Assembly (NCBI GenBank): GCA_052327205.1
Contig: CM126214.1
Location: forward strand, 171,554,001 to 171,618,000
Direction: 5' to 3'
DNA length: 64,000 nt
From: Somniosus microcephalus
Lineage: Eukaryota
Each line of letters starts with the position of its first letter. Within the stretch, counting starts at the first letter, position 1. Made by a program: the position numbers and the translations under genes. Shown in pieces: positions 6,474 through 63,257 of this stretch. The notes under the pieces are model-generated. The model did no database searches and was not told where the DNA came from. It saw only the letters and a list, made by a program, of their open reading frames with translations.

Positions 6474-7400
6474 AGCACAGAAACTTACAGCACAGAAGGA
6501 GGCCATTCAGCCCATCGTGCCTGTGCTCATTGAAAGAGCAGTCGTGCTTAGTCCCACCCCCTCGCTTTTTGTCCATAATCCTTGAAGTTCCTCATCCTCA
6601 AGTACCTGTCCAACTCCCTTTTAAAATTATTGATGGTATCCGCTTCCACCACCTTTTCAGTGAAAACAATTCTTCTCCTCTCCCCTCTCGATCTTTTGCC
6701 AATGATTTAAAATCTGTGACCTCTGGTTATTGACCCGCTCGCCAGAGGGACTAGTTTTTCTTTATCTGCTCTATCAAAACCTTTCTTCATCTTGAAAACC
6801 TCTTATTAGGTCACCTCTTAACCTTCTCTCTTCCAAGAAGAACAGTCCCAACTTTTCCAACCTCTCCTCACAGCTGAAGTCCTCCATCCCTGGTAACATC
6901 CTGGTAAATCTCCTCTGTACCCTTTCTAAGGCCTTTACATCTTTCCTGAAGTGTGGGGCCCAGAATTTTCCACAATACTCCAGCTGAGGCCTAACCAGTG
7001 ATTTAGAAAGTTCTAGCATGATCTCTTTGCTTTTATATTCTATGCCTCTATTTATCAACCCATATGCTTTTGTAACCACGTTATCAACTTGTCCTGCCAC
7101 CTTTAAGTATTTGTGTATATGGACACCAAAGTATCTCTGCTCATCTACACTTTTCAAAATTATGCCATTTATAGTATACTGTCTTTCCATATTCGTCCTC
7201 CCAAAGATAGTCAACACTGAGGAGGACTGCAACAAATTACAAGTAGTCATTAATAAACTTGCTGAGTGGACATACAATTGGCAAATGTGTTTCAACATAC
7301 TGTAGATAAGTGTGAGGTATTACATTTTGGTAAGAAAAATAAGGAGGCCACATATTACTTGGCAAATAAGAATCTAAATGGAGCAAAGGGATCTGCCAAA
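6474..7400 (-). mobile_element. CR1 3' fragment (minus strand to ~7204) joined to a + strand CR1 RT piece (~7205-7400)
   Basis: ORF 6774..7298(-) contains LVRPQLEYC and ALERVQRRFTRM; the + piece reads KIVNTEEDCNKLQ...WQMCFN. Confidence 0.8.
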
Positions 7401-15401: not shown

Positions 15402-15901
15402 NNNNNNNNNNNNNNNNNNNNNNNNNNNNNNNNNNNNNNNNNNNNNNNNNNNNNNNNNNNNNNNNNNNNNNNNNNNNNNNNNNNNNNNNNNNNNNNNNNN
15501 NNNNNNNNNNNNNNNNNNNNNNNNNNNNNNNNNNNNNNNNNNNNNNNNNNNNNNNNNNNNNNNNNNNNNNNNNNNNNNNNNNNNNNNNNNNNNNNNNNNN
15601 NNNNNNNNNNNNNNNNNNNNNNNNNNNNNNNNNNNNNNNNNNNNNNNNNNNNNNNNNNNNNNNNNNNNNNNNNNNNNNNNNNNNNNNNNNNNNNNNNNNN
15701 NNNNNNNNNNNNNNNNNNNNNNNNNNNNNNNNNNNNNNNNNNNNNNNNNNNNNNNNNNNNNNNNNNNNNNNNNNNNNNNNNNNNNNNNNNNNNNNNNNNN
15801 NNNNNNNNNNNNNNNNNNNNNNNNNNNNNNNNNNNNNNNNNNNNNNNNNNNNNNNNNNNNNNNNNNNNNNNNNNNNNNNNNNNNNNNNNNNNNNNNNNNN
15901 N
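15402..15901. other. Assembly gap (500 N)
   Basis: Run of N. Confidence 1.
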
Positions 15902-24786: not shown

Positions 24787-25134
24787 TAAATATATGCTGT
24801 ACCTTTTTCTATTGCTGTTATTTTCATCCTATAAAGTGTTGTCTAAGACTGTACACAGCACTCCATTTGTGGCCGAAGTAAGGTCTTTTTCAAGGTAAAG
24901 TAAAAAAACAAGGTCAACATTACTTTCCTGTATCTCTGTACAAAACCTAGGATTCTGTTTTATGGCCGTATCTACTTTTGATGCAACTTTAATGAGCGGT
25001 ATACATGCACACCAAGGTTCCTGTACTCTATTTCAAATGTTATCACAAAATCTCACCATTGATAGTGTTGCCATTTCTTTCCCTATTCCAAAATTTGTCA
25101 GTTCACATTTTTCCACTGCATGTAGAAATTAAAA

Positions 25135-25800
25135 TCATAGAAGTTTATGGCACAGAAGGAGGCCATTCGGCCCGTCATATCTGTGCTGGCCAAAAAAGAG
25201 CTATTCAGCCAAATCCCACTTTCCAGCTCTTGGTTCGTAACCTTGTAGGTTACGGCAGTTCAAGTGCATATCCAAGTACTTTTTAAATCCGATGAGGGTT
25301 CCTACCACCCTTTCAGGCAGTGAGTTCCAGACCCCCACAACCCTTTGGATGAAAAACCTTCTCCTCAACTCCCCTCTAATCCTTCTACCAATTACTTTAA
25401 ATCTATGCCCCTTGGTTACTGACCTCTCTGCTGGGGGAAATAGATCCTTCCTATCCACTCTATCTAGGTCCCTCATAATTTTATACACCTCAATTAAATC
25501 TCCCCTCAGCCTCCTCTGTTCCAAAGAAAACAACCCAGCCTATCTAATCTTTCCTCATAGCTAAAATTCTCCAGTCCTGGCAGCATCCTCGTAAATCTCC
25601 TCTGTACCCTCTCTAGTGCAATCACATCTTTTCTGTAATATGGTGACTAGCCTGTATGCGGTATTCTAGCTGTGGCCCAATTAGTGTTTTATACAGTTCA
25701 AGCATAAGTGCATAAGAACCTAAGAATTAGGAGCAGGAGTTGACCATAGGGCCCATCGAGCCTGCTCCGCCATTCCGTAAGATCATGGCTGATCTTACCC
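25135..25800 (-). mobile_element. CR1 3' fragments
   Basis: FSLEQRRLRGDLIEVYKIM...FFIQRVVGVWNSLP; a second CR1 tail at ~25712-25797. Confidence 0.85.
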
Positions 25801-34085: not shown

Positions 34086-36435
34086 GGCACAGGATGGATG
34101 GAAAAGCTGGGAGTGTGTTGTGTACTGTAAAATCACTCGTGGTTTAACATTGTTCAAGCAATCAGTTTTATGATTTCACCCTTAACTACCATAAATTCTC
34201 TTGTATACAAAGTACTGTAAAAAGCTATAAAGTGTGGCAATTGGAAAAAAAATCAACTTTTATGAGTTTCATGGTATAAACTTTCATTTCATTGGTGCCA
34301 CCAGGTGCAGCACTTCAGGGAGCAGTTGACTAGCTAGATGTCAGGTTGTTGGAGTCGTGTGTGTGTCTGTCAAACAGAAGAGTTTTAGATGCAGGCTAAT
34401 CTTTTACAGAAAAGAGAAAGCAAACCAGTCGCTGATCCTGGTTCTTGAAATTTACAAGCAATTTGCTGCTCTCTTGTCGCTCTCCGCTACAGTTAGAAGG
34501 AAGCAGCTACAATTACATGGATTTCTACAGGGAGGACTTGAGCAGCGGCCTTAACTCTTCCTCCTATCATATTTTAGAGTTTCACAAAAGGCTTGGCTGT
34601 ACCTAGCAGTAGTAAAATATCAAAATTGCAATTAATTAAACTCCAAAAGAAAAAAATGTAAAATGCATATAGTTTTGAATATCATATTTAGAAATATGTT
34701 CAAAGGTGTTGGTCAGAATCAAGATTCAGAAGACTGTAAATGGTTCAAGTTTCATGCCATATTTTAGATTGTCGTCCAAATCGCCCAAATGTGTAACATA
34801 CTCCCAATCATTGTTTATTCAGTCACGTATAAAATGGTAATGTTTTCACCAGACAATATTGGATCTCCTGTGGTGCTGTTCATGGGTAGTTCACAGGTCT
34901 GCAGCATGGTTGTAATGATTGGTTGGTTGCTAACCTGGCCTGATGCTTTTGATGTTTACAAACCATGATGATAGATGGGCTGATGATGGATTCAGCTGAC
35001 CTGAATAGGGTATTTAAGCGACAGTGGTTTTATTTAGAGATATGACAAATCTGTACATAATATGTAGAAATAAAGACCCCACAATAGGAGAGACTCGATG
35101 GCAGTAACGTTGGATGTAGTTATCCTGCCACTTCTGCATCGATGTAAAGCCGAACAAAACGATGGTAAGGTACTGATCTAGAACGTTGCAGTGTTCGACC
35201 ACTTGGGTTTGACACCATGTAGAATGTAACTAGTGTGGTTAAGGTCACCTACCCTAACCTCCTCCAACTTACTCCTGCTCGGATTTGATGCCTACCGTGG
35301 GATGTTTCACTATGTTAAAGGTATTTATAAATGTAAGTTCTGTTTGAGAGTGCTGTGCGCAGCCACAAATTCAAAAAACTTTTACTTGGTCTGTCCTTTT
35401 GTGTTGTTACTCAATAGTAGCTTCATGTTATCATCAAATAGTTTGCTGTCTCCCCACCAGGAGCAGCCACTCTTTCAGCCATGATGCACCAACCCTGTGG
35501 AACTCCCTTCCTTCAGCATCTCCACTTGCATATTCCTCTGTCTTTTGTGTCTTGTGTTTTACTTTCAACTTCTGTTGTTAACTAGCAACCCGTAACTGAG
35601 GGTGGATATTGGATACACTTGCATGATTGCTTTGACCAATATGTGTCTCAATCTTCCTGTTGACTCCATTCTCTATCTCTGCCTTCCCCCCACCCCACTC
35701 CCATCGATCCCACTACAAAATGCTTCAGAGACCCTGATTGTTTCAGTCCGCTTATTTTCTTTGTCCCAGTCAACAAATTTGGAAGGAAAACTGCAGGTAG
35801 CAGATTTGATTTCCATCAGAAGTTTCTTGGTTTTTTTTGGAATTTTATTTTGTTCACTTATCATTTTCTTTCCTGAACTCTGCCTATAGTTGCAACTCCT
35901 ATTTCTGGAAATTGGTAGTAGACAGATTGAAGCCTTGGGTAATGTGTCAACACTTGAGACAGTGGCTTCAGCTGAGACCCTGTCAACTACAAACAAATGA
36001 AGTAATGAGGTATGGTACTCCCAGGATCCTAATGGAGAGCAACAAGGTGAACCAGTTCAGTGAATCCGCACTCAAACTGTTCAGAGTTCTTGGTTGGAAT
36101 GAAGACTGATACCACATGAATGGACTGCACTCAAATAAAATAGCTCTTTGCATTTGGTAGACCTTTTTCAAGATTTTAAAAATGAGGTTTTGGACAAAGT
36201 AGTGAGTTTTGAATTGATGTGATTTATTCGTTCACTATTAAAATTAGTTTAAACTAGTCCCAGAAAGTTTATATTTGTATATACGAGCAGATAAATAGGC
36301 AGCTGTTATATTTCAAACTTCAATACTGAATATTATCCAATTTCAATATTAACAACTCATTCTAAACTGATACGTGTAACTATTTTTCAAGCAAATACAT
36401 GGTAGGTACTGAGACGGGATTGCAATAATCATAAA

Positions 36436-36540
36436 ATCAAAACAGAAAACACTGGAAATAATCATCAGATCAGGTCAGGTAGCATCTGTGGAGAGAGAAA
36501 CAGAGTTAACGTTTCAGGTCGATGAGCTTTCGTCAGAATG
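36436..36540 (-). mobile_element. Penelope pLTR fragment with hammerhead-like core
   Basis: Minus strand: tt CTGACGA aagctc atc gacct GAAAC gttaact ctgtttctctctccacagatgct. Confidence 0.7.
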
Positions 36541-36632
36541 ATTGCTTTAATCATATTTAGGTTTTTTTTTAAATGGCAGATGCAAAGAATATAAATGAAC
36601 GCTAATATTACATTCTTTGTGTTCTGGGATAG

Positions 36633-36732
36633 GTGGACCTAAAAGAAGCCAGCATCTGGGTCCTTGTGATATCTATTTGGATGACCTACAAAAGTTGGAT
36701 CCTAATATTGCGGCTCTGTATTTCCCAAAGAG
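36633..36732 (+). CDS. LPIN3: Lipin coding exon 7
   Basis: gatag|gt [32 protein letters not shown] ag|gtactg, 100 nt; HLGP resembles lipin-3. Confidence 0.95.
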
Positions 36733-36894
36733 GTACTGTGATCAAAATGTACAGATAAAAGGAATTCAGCAAAAGAATTCAGCAGACTGATAATAGCAGT
36801 ATATTCATTTACTCTGTTACTTCTAACCATAAAGGCTGCTTGGCACAGGAAATGTTTTATTTGATGTTTATTCGACTGTGACATCATCTTATGT

Positions 36895-37676
36895 TTAATG
36901 TTGTGGGGACAGAGGAGTGTGCAGGGACAGAGGGACCTGGTGTGCGTGGGTCTCCGAGGGTGGCGGGGCATGTGGGATCTTGGGCTTCGTAGGTGGGGGT
37001 GTTGGGTGCAAAGGTGGAGAGGTTGTGCTGAACCTTTGTGGCGCGTTGGTTGGGCCAGAACTGGAGTGTTGCATCCGGTTCTGGTCGCCGCACTTTGGGA
37101 GGGATGTGGGGACCCTTGAGAGGATGCAGAGGAGACTTACCGGAGTGTTTCCGGGGATGGGGATCTTGGCTGCAGGGACAGGTTGGAGAGGCTGGATTCT
37201 ATTTTCTCTCCATGGATGTTGCATGGCCTGCTGAGTTTTTCCAGCATTTTCTGTTGTTATTCTGGATTTGTTTTCATTTGAGCAGGGGAGGTTGAGGGGT
37301 GGTTTGGTGGAGGTGTGCAGGATTGTGGCGGGTTTGGATAGGCTAGACGGGGAGAGGCTGTTCCCACTGCTTAATGGTGCAGGGACGGGGGGATGCAGAT
37401 TTGGGGTTTTGGGCGAGAGATGCGGGGGGATGTGGGGAGAGACTTTTTTGCACGGCAGGTGGTGATGGCCTGGAATTCGCTGATGACTGAGGTGGTGGAG
37501 GCGGAGACACTCAGTGTTTTCAGTGGGAGGCTGGATGGACACTTGGGGGAGGTGGTCTTACAGGGCTGCGGGGATGGAGTGGGGGAATAGGACTGACTGG
37601 ATTGCTCTGCGGGGAGCTGGCGTGGACTCGATGGGCCGGATGGCCTCCTTCTGTGCCGTTGTGACTCTTATGACTC
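36895..37676 (+). mobile_element. CR1 3' fragment with heavy A-to-G substitution, containing a Penelope pLTR piece (~37195-37268)
   Basis: Translates as LVGPELECCIRFWSPHFGRDV (family LVRPQLEYCVQFWSPHFRKDV) and FSFEQGRLRGGLVEVCRIV (family FSLEQRRLRGDLIEVYKIM); tail gactcttatgactc. Confidence 0.85.
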
Positions 37677-38640
37677 ATTTTAGACAGTAAAATGTACTTG
37701 TATATAGTTCTTTTGAATTGTGTTGACTAAAACAAAATGGTACTGATACGGAGTTGTGTAATCTGATTACTTGGGACTACTCTAATTGACAGTGTGTTGT
37801 AAAGAACAATAAGATGAGCTATGCGGTCCTAAACATTGTGTTAAACATCAGGCCTCAGTTTCTTACTGGTGGTTGTAATGAGAGGCTAAGAGGAAATGGA
37901 TGAAAGCAGGTTAAAAAGAGAGGGGAAATGGAAGAGGAGATGAAATGTGGAGAACATCAGGTACAAAAATAAGTGGAAAAATGTGAAGTATGAAACTCGA
38001 AGGGTTGGAAGCTGTGGCAGGCAGGAATAACCCGGGATGGCTGGGAGAAAGTGAAATATGATGCCCTAGAATTTGTGGTATTATTAAACTGTTCACGATA
38101 GGTTTTAGATTTTGAAAAATCTAACCAAATTTGTTTTTGGACAAATTAATTTTGCTGCATATACTTTTGATGTTATAGTGTGCTGACAATTTAGTTGACC
38201 AAACAGGCGATGGCCTCTTGGTTTCCTAAATTGCCACCTGTGAAGGCCATTAGATTTATTTTGAAGAACTAATTGGCTCAGAGATGGAGAACTCATAAAA
38301 GACGTAAAAAGAGTGCAAGCAACGCTCAGATAGTTTGAGAGTGTGAATGCAGTAGAGAGAGAAATAGAGAATGGGAGAATTTATTGAGTCTGCTGTTGGA
38401 AGTTACAAATGACCAAAATCGTTTTGCTGTTTCAGTAAAGCTCACATAGTTATTGGGTCTTGTATATATGTCGATCCTTTTCCGTAAATAATTATTTGTG
38501 AACTCAGAAGTGGTACAGTAAAGACTGGAAAAAAATTCAAGATACAAACTATCAGTCAAAAATGTCAGAAGTGTCACGGGGCATAGGTAGGAATTGTACT
38601 TGTGTTATCCATTCAATAGCTTGAGTCCCCACAATGGGTT

Positions 38641-40715
38641 TCATAGAATCATAGAAAGTTACAGCACGGAAGGAGGCCATTTCGGCCCATCGTGTCCGCG
38701 CCGGCCAACAAAGAGCTATCCAGCCTAATCCCACTTCCCAGCTCTTGGTCCGTAGCCCTGCAGGTTAGAGCATCCCAAGTACACATCCAAGTACTTTTTA
38801 AATGTGGTTAGGGTTCTTGCCTCTACCACCCTTTCAGGCAGTGAGTTCCAGACCCCCACAACCCTCTGGGTGAAGACATTTCCCCTCAAATCCCCTCTAA
38901 ACCTTCCCCCAATTACTTTAAATCTGTGCCCCATGGTTTTTGACCCCTCTGCTAAGGGAAAGAGTTCCTTTCTATCCACTTTATCTATGCCCCTCATAAT
39001 TTTATACACCTCAATAAGGTCTCCCCTCAGCCTCCTCTGTTCCAAGGAAAATAGACCCAGCCTACCCAGTCTTTCCTCATAGCTAAGATTCTCTACTCCC
39101 GGCAACATCCTTGTAAATCTCCACTTTACCCTCTCTAATGCAATCTCATCTTTCCTGTAATGTGGTGACCAGAACTGCACGCAGTACTCTAGCTGAGACC
39201 TAACTAGTGTTTTATACAGTTGAAGCATAACCCCCCTGCTCTTGTATTCTATGCCACGGCTAATAAAGGCAAGCATTCCGTATGCCGCCTTAACCACCTT
39301 ATCTACCTGGCCTGCTACCTTCAGGGATCTGTGGACATGCACTCCAAGGTCCCTTTGCCCAAAACAGGTTCTGTACTCCCAGTTGAAGGAAGGGCAGAGG
39401 TCTCCTGGTGGTCAAAAGAAGTGTTACAAAGATAACATCAAAGTAATCCTTAAAAAGTTCCATATCGATATTAATAACTGGGAGGAAATCGCACTGGACA
39501 GAGACAATTGGAGAAAATGCATCCACAACGGTGCCGCACTACATGAAAAGAATCTCCAGCGTGCCGCTGAGGATAAACGCCAGCGCCGTAAGGAGAGACA
39601 ACAACTTAAGAAGACTCATACTCCAGTCACTACTAATAGTCTTGCATGCCCACACTGTAGTAGAGTCTGTGGATCTCGGATTTGCCTCCACGGCCACCTG
39701 AAGACCCACAAGTAGATGACTGATGAAGGACATACCATACTCGAATTCGAGTGGTCGCCGATGATGATGATGTTCCTCTACACTACTCAGTGTCCTACCA
39801 TTTAATGTGTATTCCCTTTCCTTGATGGCCCTCCCCAAATGCATTACCTCACACTTCCAGATTGAATTCCATTTGCCACTGTCCTGCCCACCTGACCAAT
39901 TTATTGATATCTTCCTGCAGTCTACAGCTTCCTTCTTCAGTAGCAACCACACAGCCGATTTTAGTATCATCTGCAAACTTCTTAATCATACCCCCTATAT
40001 TCAAGTCTAGATCATTGATATATACCACAAAAAGCAAGGAACCTAGTACTGAGCCCTGCGGAACCCCACTGGAAACAGCCTTCCAGTCACAAAAACACCC
40101 ATCAACCATTATCCTCGGCTTCCTGTCTCCGAGACAGTTTTGAATCCAACTTGACACTGTCCTGGATCCCATGGGCTTTTAACTTCGTGACCAGTCTGCC
40201 ATGTAGAACCTTATCAAAAGCCTTGCTAAAGCCCATATACACTGCATCAAACGCACTACCCTCATCTACCCTCCTTGTTACCTCCTCAAAAAATTAAATC
40301 AAGTTTGTCAGACACGACCTTCCCTTAACAAATCCGTGCTGACTGTCCTTGATTAATCCGTGTCTTTCGAAATGAAGATTTATCCTGTCCTTCAGAATTC
40401 TTTCCAATAATTTTCCCACCACCGAGGTTAGGCTGACTGGCTTGTAATTACTCGGTCTATCCTTTTCTCCCTTTTTAAACAAGGGTACCACATTAGCAGT
40501 CCTCCAGTCCTCCGGCACCACACCTGAAGCCAGAGAGGATTGAAAAATGATGGTCAGGGCCTCTGCTATTTCCTCTTTTGCTTCGCTTAACAGCCTGGGA
40601 TACATTTCATCCGGGCCTGGGGATTTATCCACTTTTAAAGCTGCTAAACCCCTTCACACTTCCTCTCTCGCTATGTTTATTTCATCTAATATTTCACACT
40701 CCTCCCCCCCGATAG
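38641..40715 (-). mobile_element. CR1 ORF2 3' half, split by an RTE fragment
   Basis: KSPGPDEMYPRLL, QHGFVKGRSCLTNL, SGVPQGSVLG, KFADDTK, LVRSQLEYC; tail (tcatagaa)n. Confidence 0.9.
39356..39771 (+). mobile_element. RTE-clade LINE 3' fragment (second family)
   Basis: PKQVLYSQLKEGQRSPGGQKKCYKD...CPHCSRVCGSRICLHGHLKTH; (GAT)n tail. Confidence 0.8.
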
Positions 40716-40719
40716 CAAA

Positions 40720-42420
40720 GTCTCCACATTTTTCTATAGTCACTGATGGCTGCAATGTCTTCATTAACGTTGTCCTCATTCTTTTTGAAGTCTTTGTCTC
40801 TTGAAGCCTGGAAATTGTTAGAGGCAGATAATTTTTAAATATGTTAGAGTTGGAGCAAGAGCAGGTCCCCGAGGGAGTTTGTTTTTCTGGATCCTCCATG
40901 TGCTCAGCTTATTGCATAACATCACCTGAAATTGTCTGTCTTGATACATCATCTCCGTAGCCATAATACCCGATCGAGGTAACACCATTAACATCTTGAC
41001 CAGTAGGCCAGTGTGTCAGACAGTATCATATGCCGCTGTCATCAAGAAATACAGCCCCTGTCGTCTTCTGTTGGAAACCACTTTCTAAATAGGTGGTAAG
41101 AGCAAGAATTTGGTCACAAGATGTGGTCTGCAGCCTGCCTGCTCACCCTTCAGAGGTGCATCTACTATGGGCATAATTCTTTGCCGAATTGGCTACTCCA
41201 GGGGTTTTTAAGCACATTTCAGAGGTGATATAGGACAGTAACTAGCTGGGAGGGAATGATTCTTCCCTGGTTTTGGTATAGCTATCACCCTAGTATCTTG
41301 GGCATCTTGCTCTCTCTTGGAAGGCATGGGATATAAAGATTTTCAGCCCTTTTATGCTCTTCTTTCTAAGGTGTAGTAACATTTCTGGTGAAATCTTGTC
41401 AAGGCTGCAAGCTTTTCCTGCTATCTTCACTTCCTCAGTGGAGAATGGTTGGAAGGTGTATTCCTCACTGAGGTGAGACCACTCTGCATCTACGCCACTT
41501 CCACTTTACTGATTCTTCAAAGATCTCGTCCCAGTTGACATTTGCCATGTTATTCAGGTGTGTGGTGATACTGTTCATGGACTTCTTACACTGACCTATG
41601 GGTGCTAGTTTCTGTGCTGCTCCAAACTTCCTAATGAGAGACCATGCTTTTCTGCTAGACGTTGTCATGCCATATCTGATGTAGTTTCTTCCTAACGTTG
41701 CAACAGGCATTGAGGCTGTCAATATAGTGGTTTGCTATTTCCGAGTCACCAGATTCCTCATACTGTTTCAGAAGTTCTGCACATTCCCCATCTAAACAGG
41801 GTATATAAACTTTTTAACAGCCATGTGGGATGGATTTAGTGGCTGCTTTGAAGATTGCTTTGAAGAAGTGAGGGTAAGCGTTTTTTTACAGGTGTGCACA
41901 CTGTATACATGTCAGTCAACTCTCAAGTATTTTTGCCAGTCTGCTTTTCTGTACTTTCACCTTAATCTTGGGATGGTAGTTATTACGGGATCATCACATC
42001 TATCCGAGTAAGAATGATGCGGTGGTGTTCCAAGAACTCCAGAGAAGTCTGGAAACAGGTGGCCCTCCTGCTGAGGTGCCTCGGTTGAGGTGAAGAAAGT
42101 AGCCCGGCCTCCACCATGCATAAAAGAATGTGGCTGGCTGTTTAAGATCATGCAAGAGGTATAGATCATTTATAGAAGTTCAGGCTACAAAATCCAGTCC
42201 ATTTCTGTCAGATTCTCTGTAGCTGCGGGAGTTGTGGTGGCTGTTGAAGGCCCCAACATAAATGGATGGATTTTGAAGCTTTGGTAAAGGTTGGCATTCC
42301 AGGCTTCATCAAGAGGTTTATAAACTTCGGCAACTTTAAATTGGCCGACTTATACAATGTCAAAGTGAAACGAAGTAGTTGGTAAGGTCTCCACGTTAAC
42401 AATAACATATATCACATAAA
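40720..42420 (-). mobile_element. Degenerate Vingi/Ingi-like LINE
   Basis: MTTSSRKAWSLIRKFGAAQK and PYQLLRFTLTLYK fragments resemble Vingi RT-proximal sequence; many frameshifts. Confidence 0.55.
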
Positions 42421-42499
42421 TAGCTCTTCCATGTAGATTTGAACTAGCCTCTTATTGTAAGCATATTGGCAAAGAAGGAGTCTACATGTGTTTCTTGAA

Positions 42500-42605
42500 A
42501 TAACAACAGAAAATGCTGGAAATACTCAGCAGGCCAGGCAGCATCCGTGGAGAGAGAAACAGAGTTAACGTTTCAGGTCTGGGACCCTTCATCAGAACTG
42601 GAAAA
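42500..42605 (-). mobile_element. Penelope pLTR fragment with a near-intact minimal hammerhead motif (42563-42599)
   Basis: Minus strand: AGTT CTGATGA A GGGTC cca GACCT GAAA C GTT AACT. Confidence 0.75.
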
Positions 42606-43161
42606 AGCTGGAGATGTAACAGATATTAAGCAGGTGCAGAGACAGCGGTGGGGGGGGGGTGGGGTTGGGTTAAGAGGGGAGGAAGAAATAGAAAGAACAT
42701 CCTGTACTTTTGTAAGAGGCAGGAAAGATATTAACTTTATGAGGTTCTCTATTACTGAGCGCTTTGCAGCTGACAGCCCTTCGACACTAAGTTGAAGAAT
42801 GAAAAGTGAAGAACCAATGCAAGTTAATCCAGTACCACTGAAACCGGAATCGGGTTGTCCAGGTTTGGTCTGCTGTTTGCTGCTTTGGTTTCCCTTGAAA
42901 GGAAATCGCAGGATGCATGACGAGAACGTAGCAGTGTTGCACCCCATTTATAACATGGTGGCTCTCATCTTTTGCCTTTTTATGATGTTAATGCCACAGG
43001 TACAGGATGTATGTAATCAAATCACCACACTCTAAGCATTACCACAAGATGCTTTGTGTTTAAATTTGCTGATTGATGTGTAATTTGTCATTTCAGCAAA
43101 ATATATTGCATTTAATTATTTCGTCTACTACTGGACATAACTGCTGCTGCTTCCTTTTCAG

Positions 43162-43349
43162 TGAACAGGATTTGGGTTCTAAGCAGTTGAATGAACCTGG
43201 TACACATTCAGAGTCCCAATCTCCACAATCAGTAGGAAGTGCAGCTGGAGATAGTGGCACGGACTATCTGTCTGATTCGGCTAGCGAACTGCCCGATGTA
43301 AATCTCTCTCTGTGTGGTGGTCTCAGTGATAACAATGAGATTTCCCAAG
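43162..43349 (+). CDS. LPIN3: Lipin coding exon 8
   Basis: tttcag|t EQDLGSKQ...[45 protein letters not shown] g|gtacag, 188 nt. Confidence 0.95.
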
Positions 43350-44141
43350 GTACAGTGAACTGGAATACAGTGACTTAAATGGTCATTATCCAACATTTAT
43401 TTGATCACTAATTTCTGTAGTCTGTATGTGGAGAATTCTAATATTTTTGATTGCGCTGGATACAATAACCGTTCTGCCTGACTATTGATCACTCAGGATA
43501 TTGCTTTTTTTTTTCATTTCTCTTTTAAAAATGTTTTTGTTGTGTCTTCTGCATGTTGGTACTTAAATATTCTTTGCGTTGCCTTTAGCTAACATGATGT
43601 GTGAAAATTCTTCCAGGCCTGGTGCAACTGTTATTACAAATCTGTTTTATTGAATTTTGATTGCTTTCTTTAAGTACCTACACATTTTTTTAAGTACCTA
43701 TACGTTTTTTTTAAAGTACAAATATAAATGTGTTTTGCATTGGTGCAATTCTTTTTTTCATCTGCAATTTATACAAAAGTCTTCTAAACTGCCAAGTTTG
43801 AAAGCTTACTCTCTTCGTTAACTGGTGAAGAACTGCAACAGGAGATGCACCGATGGGTGCTTCAGTAGTGCTTATGACTTGGTCCACAACTTTTCTTTAT
43901 CATTTGTAGGAGGAAAAATGTAAAGATTGGGCCAAGAGATAGTTAATTTTGCCACGAATGTAGTCGACCTTAATTAATGAAACACAATATTAAATACTGG
44001 ATTTTTTGAAAAAAACTAATTGCAGTATACAAACTCGCATTTGCGGTGTCAGTCTGCAAAATATATACTTAAAAAAAATACACATTTACTTCACGAAGGT
44101 GCTGTGCATCAAATGTTCCCAGAGAGTGTGTATAGTCACCT

Positions 44142-61583: not shown

Positions 61584-61736
61584 GAATGGCTACAAATTTC
61601 TTTACTGCTCTGCCCGTGCAATAGGAATGGCAGATATAACCAGAGGATACTTGCACTGGGTTAATGACAGAGGTACTGTACTTCCCAGAGGACCCCTCCT
61701 GCTGGCTCCCAGTAGTTTGTTTTCAGCATTACACAG
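61584..61736 (+). CDS. LPIN3: Lipin coding exon 16
   Basis: tacag|g [50 protein letters not shown] ag|gtaatg, 153 nt. Confidence 0.97.
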
Positions 61737-63142
61737 GTAATGATTCTTTTCAGTATTAATATATTTCATGAATAGCAAAGTTGCCATCATTTATCTATGC
61801 CTGCAAATCTAATTGGGTTTTAAGCATCACTTAAGCTTCATGGTGCAGACACATTTAAAGAGGAAAATTCCTACATGTGTTTACACTTCAAATAAAAACT
61901 GTTCTGACTTTTATATTGTCACAGCAGACTTTATGAAAAATCTGCCTATTTGACGAATTCACGATTACTTGTAGCAGGGGAAATCTTGACACTTGCCAAC
62001 TGAAGTCGGCCACAGACTATGGCAGCAAACACCCCTATTGATTCAACCAGGGCTTATCTCTTCCAGTTTTCCGAAGATCTCGATCATTAAATAACCACAG
62101 TGGCTGACAGAGTTGTTTGATGATAACTTGGGATCTCCACATGGGTGTAGCATTGTGCTGCTAACCTTTGCTTGTAGGTAGTAAAATGAGTTTTTCCTTT
62201 TTTTGCCCTTTCAGAAATGCAATTTTCAATCTTTTCTTAAAAATAAAATCGAATGGAAAAACTGTACTGAACTTGCAATACTTGCATCCTCTTGATTTTT
62301 GCACATCAATCATTTTACATTTTATTGACGACGCTGCTGGGAATGCCAGTGACTTGCTTTTTCCAGTGTCTTTTAATTCCAAACAATAAGTTATTCTATA
62401 ACTCCACTTCATCTCACATGTAGATAGTGGGGGTTAAATTGGGCTGCGTAGCGCCAGTTTTTCAGGCGCTATGTGGTCTCCTAAGGCCCCAAATCGCGGG
62501 CAAGTAGTGCGCGCACACATCCAACTGGAAGTGCGTCGTCCGCCATATTGGATGAGGACAAACAAGAGGCGTCCTTTACCCATGCCTGAAGCAGGCATTG
62601 GGCCGTTTGCATGTGCAAATAAGGGCCCTAGCACCTACTCCAGGTCCTCACTCCAACATTGGCTCCATGCTGGCTGCCTCAGGGAAAACCAGCCCTAAAC
62701 ATCGCCTACATAAAAAAAGGTAAGTACTGACCACAATCACCATCCGATCATTGCCGCTCCCAGTCCCAAGATCGCTGACCTCCAGGCCCCTCGATCTCTC
62801 ATCGCTCTCCCTGCAACCCCCCCCCCCCCCCCCCGATTCCCGATCTTACTCCCCCTCCCCCACCCCCCGATCCCAACCCACAGCAAACTGCTCATTTGGT
62901 TTGTATAAAACTTATTACAGCACGTTACCTCATTTGGTTTGTATAAACCTTATTGCAGCACGTTACAAAAAGTGTTGCCCGGTTAATGCCTTCTTGAATA
63001 ATGTTTTTAAAAATGCAGTAATGGATCATTTTAATTGGCACAGTCTGTATTTTACACACATTTATTTGGAAAATAGAAAAAATCTTGCAATAATACAGTT
63101 CGATTAAAATGCCAAAAACTTCTTGTTTCTTCTGTTTTTCAG

Positions 63143-63257
63143 GGAAGTAATTGAGAAGAAACCAGAAGTGTTCAAAATTCATTGCTTGAATGACATCCGG
63201 AATCTATTTAATCCACATAGGTGTCCATTTTATGCTGCTTTTGGAAACCGGACTAAT
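63143..63257 (+). CDS. LPIN3: Lipin coding exon 17
   Basis: tttcag|g [38 protein letters not shown]|gtaagt, 115 nt; KKPEVFK resembles lipin-3. Confidence 0.97.

What the first reader, a model, noticed from the sequence alone, without database searches (positions are those of the whole stretch)
36895..37676. CR1 retrocopy with dense one-strand A-to-G hypermutation: candidate genome-fixed ADAR-hyperedited RNA
Seen: against other CR1 copies in this window, many sense-strand A are G while T and C are largely kept. Example 1: 37061 ctggagtgttgcatccggttctggtcgccgcactttgggagggatgtgggg versus the reverse complement of ~6930-6983 ctggagtattgtggaaaattctgggccccacacttcaggaaagatgtaaag. Example 2: 37281 agcaggggaggttgaggggtggtttggtggaggtgtgcaggattgtggcggg versus 23064 agcagagaaaattaagtggagatttgatagaggtgtgcaaaatcatgaagag. 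At protein level Y>C, K>R/G, I>V and D>G recur. The G skew starts and stops at the element edges. The copy also carries internal deletions and an embedded Penelope piece. Known: ADAR converts A to I in dsRNA and reverse transcriptase reads I as G; APOBEC leaves G-to-A; CpG decay and GC-biased conversion are strand-symmetric. Inference: a hyperedited transcript of an already degenerate composite copy was reverse-transcribed into the germline, or an edited cDNA converted this locus (an antisense CR1 lies ~1 kb downstream in the same intron). Either would be an RNA-editing-to-DNA route that is seldom documented for LINEs.
Basis: partly seen in the sequence, partly recalled or inferred. Interest (0 to 1): 0.85.

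Follow-up and report, generated by a model that had tools for sequence, protein, structure and literature searches.

The report
ADAR-edited CR1 RNA fixed in DNA
A jumping-gene copy in an intron of a lipin gene has about 44% of its A letters changed to G on one strand, in the neighbour pattern of the RNA-editing enzyme ADAR, and at least three other copies in this genome carry separate scars of the same kind, which likely means that edited RNA was now and then copied back into inherited DNA.

Summary
Observation confirmed. Against its own CR1 subfamily the copy has 78 A>G at 178 A positions but 2 T>C at 158 T positions (family background 0.7%). Edited fraction by 5' neighbour is U .88, A .69, C .32, G .17, the ADAR pattern. 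It is not a G-rich subfamily and not an assembly artefact: contigs of two further runs match its 5' half, and a related organism holds the same locus with most of the G's. Three other copies are heavily and independently edited (L003, L064, L066); none was found with the mirror T>C scar (four pattern pairs; small numbers). The antisense neighbour is only 69% alike and shows no matching scar. Best reading: ADAR-hyperedited CR1 RNA, then ordinary retrotransposition (0.85). This scan noted the same phenomenon before, in this genome (e1-8846201) and others. I found no paper on ADAR-scarred genomic LINE copies, but two likely papers were not held.

The parts
36905..36914 (+). 5' junction: short second copy of the CR1 motif that recurs at 36925-36934 (likely template-jump filler)
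   Evidence: seen in sequence; interpretation inferred
36913..37198 (+). CR1 ORF2 3' region, hyperedited; carries deletions of 7 nt (36940/41), 25 nt (36967/68) and 1 nt
   Evidence: family ORF has RVT_1 upstream
36966..36973 (+). 8-nt sequence left at the 25-nt deletion; in organism C it stands twice, 25 nt apart, made identical by A>G changes
   Evidence: table 4
37199..37261 (+).
37262..37676 (+). CR1 end of ORF2, 3' UTR and microsatellite tail, hyperedited up to 37661 in the first tail unit
36635..36732 (+). exon of the host gene just upstream (lipin by context; this exon alone has no Pfam hit)
61584..63257 (+). two host exons with the LNS2 (lipin) domain; fix the host gene on the + strand
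38640..40700 (-). antisense CR1 of another subfamily in the same intron; 62% alike to the edited copy, 69% to the unedited family; not part of the event by the tests done

Best explanation
This is a 5'-truncated CR1 LINE copy with a one-strand A>G scar that was likely written by ADAR on the element's RNA before that RNA was reverse-transcribed into the germ line. Shown: the copy belongs to a subfamily with thousands of 97-99% identical members; 44% of its sense-strand A read G; A after U or A is hit, A after G is spared; the G's are in DNA of more than one sample and of a related organism; other copies carry independent scars. Inferred steps: (1) a sense CR1 RNA paired along its whole 3' 770 nt with a near-identical antisense CR1 RNA, either an inverted copy in the same transcript at an unknown source locus or an antisense transcript in trans; (2) ADAR deaminated A to inosine; (3) CR1 ORF2 protein, made before editing or supplied in trans, primed at the 3' tail and read inosine as G; only a sense arm carries the tail, so only sense A>G copies should result; (4) the copy was fixed before the split from organism C; (5) afterwards came CpG decay, a 25-nt deletion between 8-nt repeats that editing had made identical, and probably the 63-nt insert. 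It is a rare by-product (about 1 copy in 1-2 thousand), with no sign of function.
For: 78 of 178 A>G against 2 of 158 T>C. 5' neighbour edited fraction U 29/33, A 27/39, C 10/31, G 12/72, p 8e-13; pooled over L003, L064, L066: U .40, A .39, C .19, G .07, p 3e-16; G depletion upstream is the ADAR mark in PMC3197674, PMC5625713 and PMC8586724 (passages). L066 77:0, L064 41:1, L003 29:1; shared edits match the context expectation for independent events (window and L066: 44 shared, 41.2 expected). L003 and L064 are edited in patches. X1 and X3 contigs over 36510-37231 differ from the window at 1 letter each; organism C contigs span both junctions and show 24, 3 and 16 other letters where an unedited copy would show at least 28, 8 and 35, and 13 of the 24 are listed at positions that are not edited sites. 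Four sense patterns gave 16 matches besides the window, 3 heavily and 2 moderately edited; four mirror patterns gave 2 matches, neither T>C-rich. A_deamin genes are in the genome, 25 exon matches on 6 contigs. ADAR hyperediting of repeats is on record for elephant shark RNA and of CR1 3' fragments for chicken RNA (PMC5625713, passages).
Against: No source locus or double-stranded partner was found. The 3' neighbour preference for G is weak (36/65 against 35-41% for the others, p 0.16; pooled sisters p 0.08, G not highest). Sense-only scarring genome-wide rests on 3 against 0 clear copies (p 0.125) or 5 against 0 with moderate ones (p 0.03), and 3 of the 4 sense patterns were picked at sites edited in the window copy. 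11 of the 16 sense matches are not hyperedited. No target-site duplication was found for the window copy, L003 or L066. L003 has an inverted scrap of the same subfamily 5 kb away that overlaps its densest patch, which a local mechanism would predict. In cell culture, ectopic human L1 RNA was not edited by ADAR1 (PMC5224506, passages). Only assembled contigs, no raw DNA reads, were laid; X1 or X3 may be the window's own sample.
Confidence: 0.85

Rival explanations
1. In-place rewriting: the CR1 sat here unedited, the lipin pre-mRNA folded on an inverted CR1, ADAR edited it, and a cDNA of that RNA converted the chromosomal copy.
For: The copy is sense to the + strand host gene, so the pre-mRNA strand is the edited strand. 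L003 has an inverted same-subfamily scrap 5 kb away overlapping its densest patch, 1 of 6 edited loci examined.
Against: Best inverted partner in the window is 69% alike and shows no + strand A>G excess (15 A>G, 11 G>A against its nearest window paralog). No same-subfamily inverted partner within 10 kb of L066, L064, L004, L063. The scrap near L003 is unedited and L003 has no edits over the scrap's 3' part. Antisense-lying copies should then give sense T>C scars; none found in four mirror patterns.
Confidence: 0.05
2. No ADAR: error-prone DNA synthesis during insertion (G opposite T in second-strand synthesis when dATP is short) or an unknown DNA adenine deaminase made the scar.
For: Gives one-strand, one-event, element-bounded changes without a dsRNA partner, and none was found. 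The 3' G preference is weak.
Against: 5' order U>A>C>G repeats in four independent copies and matches ADAR; patchy editing in L003 and L064 fits partial duplexes; no such enzyme or error spectrum is known to me in vertebrates (recalled).
Confidence: 0.06
3. One reading: the RNA came from an old composite copy that already held the deletions and the insert, and was edited and retroposed as a whole.
For: An insert would loop out of a duplex and escape editing, so 0 of 8 edits in it (p 0.002 if it were paired) does not exclude this. The 7-nt deletion may be shared with organism C (gap arithmetic, record 18: 25 put in, 7 left out).
Against: The 25-nt piece is present and edited in organism C. Organism C's contig stops matching at 37262. 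L002, the only copy with an insert at this site among the loci fetched, differs in insert length and duplication and is unedited.
Confidence: 0.03
4. G-rich subfamily, or a sequencing or polishing artefact.
For: The CR1 sense strand is G-rich anyway (0.35). Trace-level mismatch clusters can be artefacts (PMC2873906, passages; there mainly G-to-A).
Against: All edited columns are A in at least 81% of 27 copies; 7200 exact unedited matches against 5 doubly changed at one site; edited copies share no more edits than context predicts; the G's stand in contigs of three organisms' labels and two studies; C at 37394 in organism C shows a CA>CG>TG path that needs the G to have been in methylated DNA.
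Confidence: 0.01

Closest known systems
ADAR-linked A-to-G hypermutation in avian retroviruses (RAV-1, Felder 1994; avian leukosis virus, Hajjar and Linial 1995), as cited in PMC8586724 (passage read; originals not seen)
   Same: RNA hyperediting carried into DNA by reverse transcription; one-strand A>G clusters
   Different: Here a non-LTR element, in the germ line, fixed across a species split, and recurring in one genome
APOBEC G-to-A 'DNA editing' scars in genomic retroelements (PMC4866542, PMC3880073, PMC2873906; passages read)
   Same: Host deaminase scar preserved in inherited retroelement copies; detected by one-direction, one-strand clusters against the subfamily consensus
   Different: Those are C-to-U on cDNA giving sense G>A; the PMC4866542 filter keeps G-to-A and not A-to-G. 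Here A>G with ADAR context, and G>A is only 9
ADAR hyperediting of repeat-derived dsRNA in transcriptomes (PMC5625713, PMC3197674, PMC4365171; passages read)
   Same: Density, 5' G avoidance, CR1 3' fragments as substrate, activity in a cartilaginous fish
   Different: Those are RNA-versus-DNA differences; here the change is in the chromosome
ADAR1 restriction of human LINE-1 (PMC5224506; passages read)
   Same: ADAR meets LINE RNA in the retrotransposition particle
   Different: That restriction was editing-independent and no edits were seen in more than 2.5 kb of L1 RNA; this copy shows editing can occur and be inherited, rarely
Mouse provirus Mtv61 5' A>G excess (PMC12548423; passage read)
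   Same: A>G excess in an endogenous retroelement, ADAR considered
   Different: The authors found no ADAR context there; here the context is strong and the excess 39-fold over T>C

Membership tests
ADAR hyperediting footprint | Dense A>G on one strand with other changes at background | tested here: met
   78/178 A>G, 2/158 T>C, 9 G>A, 8 C>T, 11 transversions
ADAR hyperediting footprint | G depleted, U and A favoured 5' of the edited A | tested here: met
   U .88, A .69, C .32, G .17, p 8e-13; sisters p 3e-16
ADAR hyperediting footprint | G favoured 3' of the edited A (most vertebrates) | tested here: inconclusive
   G .55 against .35-.41, p 0.16; sisters p 0.08 with A highest; PMC5625713 reports two species groups, G or A downstream
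ADAR hyperediting footprint | A double-stranded RNA partner for the edited stretch | tested here: inconclusive
   No close inverted partner near the inserted copy; the source locus is unknown, so the partner could not be tested there
ADAR hyperediting footprint | Dependence on ADAR enzyme | not testable with these tools
   A_deamin-domain genes are present; the domain also covers ADAT and ADAD (recalled)
CR1-type LINE copy | 3' end of an RT-encoding ORF, 3' UTR and short microsatellite tail, 5' truncated | tested here: met
Family copy L033 has RVT_1; tail and truncation seen.
CR1-type LINE copy | New insertion: empty site in an outgroup or target-site duplication | tested here: inconclusive
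   No duplication found; organism C has the filled site; more distant organisms not read
APOBEC-edited retroelement | Sense-strand G>A clusters | tested here: not met
   G>A 9 against A>G 78
Penelope-like element (the 63-nt insert) | Link to a Penelope RT/GIY-YIG gene or hammerhead-bearing terminal repeat | tested here: inconclusive
   Rfam found nothing in 35000-44000; it is a very abundant short repeat; no ORF link tested

The most novel reading that the evidence does not exclude
ADAR hyperediting is a recurring, heritable mutagen of LINE insertions in this lineage (probably cartilaginous fish), the RNA-level twin of APOBEC scarring: about one CR1 insertion in one to two thousand comes from an inosine-laden RNA, so the genome holds a datable fossil record of germ-line ADAR activity, of its ancient sequence preference and of which retroelement RNAs were double-stranded.
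Probability: 0.65. Interest if true: 0.75.

Novelty: new variant of a known kind. Interest (0 to 1): 0.6.

Why it matters
A-to-I editing is held to change RNA, not heredity, and ADAR's effect on human LINE-1 was reported as editing-independent. Copies like this show a route from RNA editing to inherited DNA in a vertebrate LINE, give direct evidence that retrotransposing RNA can be double-stranded and edited in germ cells, and can be counted and dated with a simple genome scan mirrored on the published APOBEC scans. They also mislead repeat dating: this copy looks 16% diverged but is about 5% at non-A positions. It is rare and shows no function, which caps the interest.

Tried and rejected
Window-only paralogs are 60-67% alike and blur the spectrum; replaced by own-subfamily copies. 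Search for an unedited source with the same deletions and insert: none among the loci fetched; L002 rejected; no locus shares more than 4 of the window's 30 non-A>G differences. Target-site duplication search: nothing convincing. Rfam on 35000-44000: 0 matches. PDB search of the nearby exon: no useful hit. Sense-pattern matches that turned out not hyperedited: L061, L068, L069, L070, L072, L075-L080 (11 of 16); L072 and L077 belong to another subfamily. L006 (9:2) and L023 (10:1) from the first search are ambiguous and not counted. No RNA holder listed. Runs with small word shares (organisms D-F) are not used as evidence; only X9 of them was laid and it showed one flank piece. A second read-laying on organisms C, E and F gave no result, so the insert's presence in C and an empty site in E or F stay open. 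Literature: 10 full-text searches found no report of ADAR-scarred genomic LINE copies; Carmi, Church and Levanon 2011 and a 2015 Knisbacher and Levanon review were not held and may discuss A-to-G clusters; no supplements were read. An earlier scan note names 'genome-encoded A>G clusters in mammalian retrotransposons' as known; I could not trace the paper.

Full report
Observation. The stretch 36905-37676 is a 5'-truncated LINE copy on the + strand. Its G skew is bounded by the element, but the sense strand of the family is G-rich anyway: G 0.35 in the family, 0.42 in this copy, 0.20 and 0.26 in the flanks. Paralogs inside the window are only 60-67% alike; against them A>G already exceeds T>C about fourfold (649 against 158 summed over 7 copies). 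A search of the 6.4-Gb own genome found the true subfamily at 83-85% identity, whose members are 97-99% alike to each other and carry a reverse-transcriptase ORF upstream. Against the column majority of 27 distinct members the copy has 79 A>G at 188 A and 2 T>C at 168 T (Fisher p 1e-23); members themselves show 47 of 6689 and 27 of 5362. Leaving out the uncertain 5' junction gives 78 of 178 and 2 of 158, with 9 G>A, 8 C>T and 11 transversions. Every edited column is A in at least 81% of the 27 members. Non-A divergence is 5.3%, within the family range of 1.2-8%.

Context. The edited fraction depends on the 5' neighbour: U 29 of 33, A 27 of 39, C 10 of 31, G 12 of 72 (p 8e-13). The 3' preference is weak: G 36 of 65 against 35-41% (p 0.16). 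Depletion of G upstream is the shared ADAR mark in PMC3197674, PMC5625713 and PMC8586724 (passages read). Genes with the A_deamin domain are in this genome (25 exon matches on 6 contigs).

Is it in DNA? Logan contigs of four runs were laid. X1 (organism A) and X3 (organism B), one study, each give a contig over about 36510-37231 with 1 other letter; one of them may be the window's own sample. X4 (organism C, another study) holds the orthologous locus: contigs span the left junction (36509-37122, 24 other letters), 37262-37353 (3), 37336-37652 (16) and the right junction (37630-37957, 15). These first three spans hold 28, 8 and 35 edited sites; 13 of the 24 differences and 2 of the 16 are listed at positions outside the edited list, so at least about 40 of 71 edited sites are G in organism C (allowing for its 14 gaps), and likely most. 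At 37394 organism C has C where the window has T before an edited G, a CA>CG>TG path. No raw DNA reads were laid, and no listed contig of organisms A or B spans the 3' half.

Order of events. Organism C has 25 letters after 36965 that the window lacks; against family copy L008 they differ by three A>G and nothing else. So editing came first and the deletion later, in the window's lineage. The 25 letters begin with the same 8 letters that follow them; in unedited copies these two 8-mers differ, so editing likely made the repeat that seeded the deletion (inference). The 63-nt insert at 37199-37261 lies between 7-nt direct repeats, has 0 of 8 A changed (p 0.002 at the element's rates), and an organism C contig stops matching exactly at 37262 with 9 letters left over: probably a later insertion, not proven, because an insert would loop out of a duplex and escape editing in any case. 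L002 has an insert of the same repeat at this site, but about 115 nt long, with a 15-nt duplication and only 4 A>G: a hot spot, not the source.

Other copies. Four pairs of patterns were run over the genome, each asking for two A>G changes on the sense strand or for the two mirror T>C changes. Sense: 5, 5, 2 and 7 matches, 3 of the 19 being the window. Mirror: 0, 1, 1 and 0. The unedited form of the first site matches 7200 times. Of the 16 other sense matches, three are heavily edited (L066 77 A>G to 0 T>C, L064 41:1, L003 29:1), two moderately (L004 11:0, L063 14:2) and eleven not; neither mirror match is T>C-rich. L066 has about 36 more A>G upstream of a 290-nt insert. The three sisters repeat the 5' context (p 3e-16) and share with the window no more edits than context predicts (44 against 41.2, 18 against 15.6, 21 against 17.5), so these are separate events, not a G-rich branch. 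Sense-only scarring is suggestive: 3 against 0 gives p 0.125, 5 against 0 p 0.03, and three sense patterns were chosen at sites edited in the window. Frequency is of the order of 1 in 1-2 thousand copies (rough).

Surroundings. The host is a lipin gene on the + strand (LNS2 exons at 61584-61736 and 63143-63257; exon at 36635-36732), so the copy is sense to the pre-mRNA. The antisense CR1 at 38640-40700 is 69% alike to the unedited family and has no + strand A>G excess. No same-subfamily inverted partner lies in the window or within 10 kb of L066, L064, L004 or L063; L003 has an inverted, heavily deleted scrap 5 kb away whose 60-nt piece overlaps L003's densest patch, but the scrap is unedited and L003 has no edits opposite its 3' part.

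Mechanism. Shown: a one-event, one-strand, ADAR-context A>G scar in inherited DNA, recurring. Inferred: a sense CR1 RNA paired with a near-identical antisense RNA (inverted copy at an unknown source, or in trans among thousands of 98% identical copies), was hyperedited by ADAR down to the first tail unit (37661), and was then copied by target-primed reverse transcription with ORF2 protein made earlier or supplied in trans. Editing of the cDNA strand in an RNA:DNA hybrid would give sense T>C and does not fit. Confidence 0.85; rivals are in-place rewriting (0.05), synthesis error or an unknown DNA deaminase (0.06), the composite-source route (0.03) and artefact or subfamily (0.01).

Known work. 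ADAR hyperediting of repeats is documented in RNA, including elephant shark brain and chicken CR1 3' fragments (PMC5625713, passages). Its passage into DNA is reported for avian retroviruses (cited in PMC8586724, passage). Genome scans for deaminase scars targeted G-to-A (PMC4866542, PMC3880073, PMC2873906; passages). ADAR1 restricted human L1 without editing it (PMC5224506, passages). One mouse provirus has an A>G excess without ADAR context (PMC12548423, passage). PMC5974252 and PMC4365171 (passages) added nothing on this. Ten full-text searches found no report of ADAR-scarred genomic LINE copies; two likely papers were not held and no supplements were read, so prior mention is not excluded. 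This scan's notes describe the same phenomenon in this genome (e1-8846201) and in at least eight windows of other genomes; they are unchecked and not counted as support. That the animal is a shark or ray comes from those notes and was not tested here.

Verdict. Real, well supported, rare, without sign of function. New variant of a known kind; interest 0.6.

Noticed in passing
L002:1715-1845 (G000:C4) and window 37192-37268: Two copies of this CR1 subfamily carry independent inserts of the same short repeat at the same site, with the same left breakpoint but different lengths and duplications (15 and 7 nt); the repeat's end resembles the target, suggesting a homology-guided insertion hot spot.
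   Followed up: partly
L066 (G000:C7:77019085-77020350): A 980-nt copy with about 113 A>G and almost no T>C, split by a 290-nt A-rich insert whose two flanking short repeats differ at one editable A; its 5' junction has a tripled 19-nt motif and its first 60 nt look unedited.
   Followed up: partly
L085:5251-5550 (G000:C21): Inverted, heavily deleted scrap of the same subfamily 5 kb from edited copy L003; its 60-nt piece overlaps L003's densest edited patch but is itself unedited.
   Followed up: partly
window 36966-36973: A>G changes turned two imperfect 8-mers into a perfect direct repeat, and the 25 nt between them were later lost in the window's lineage but kept in organism C.
   Followed up: yes
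L061, L068-L070, L075, L076, L078-L080: Copies with two A>G at chosen UA or AA sites but no hyperediting outnumber mirror T>C doubles 9 to 2; light editing of many more copies is possible.
   Followed up: no
window 38640-39360: The antisense neighbour shows 26 T>C against 9 C>T on the + strand relative to the copy at 25130-25707 (unpolarised; 25 against 22 relative to another copy); mild editing on its own sense strand was not tested against its subfamily.
   Followed up: no
window 23957-63257: Host gene is a lipin (LNS2 domain exons at 61584-61736 and 63143-63257), + strand; a 500-N gap lies at 15402-15901.
   Followed up: partly
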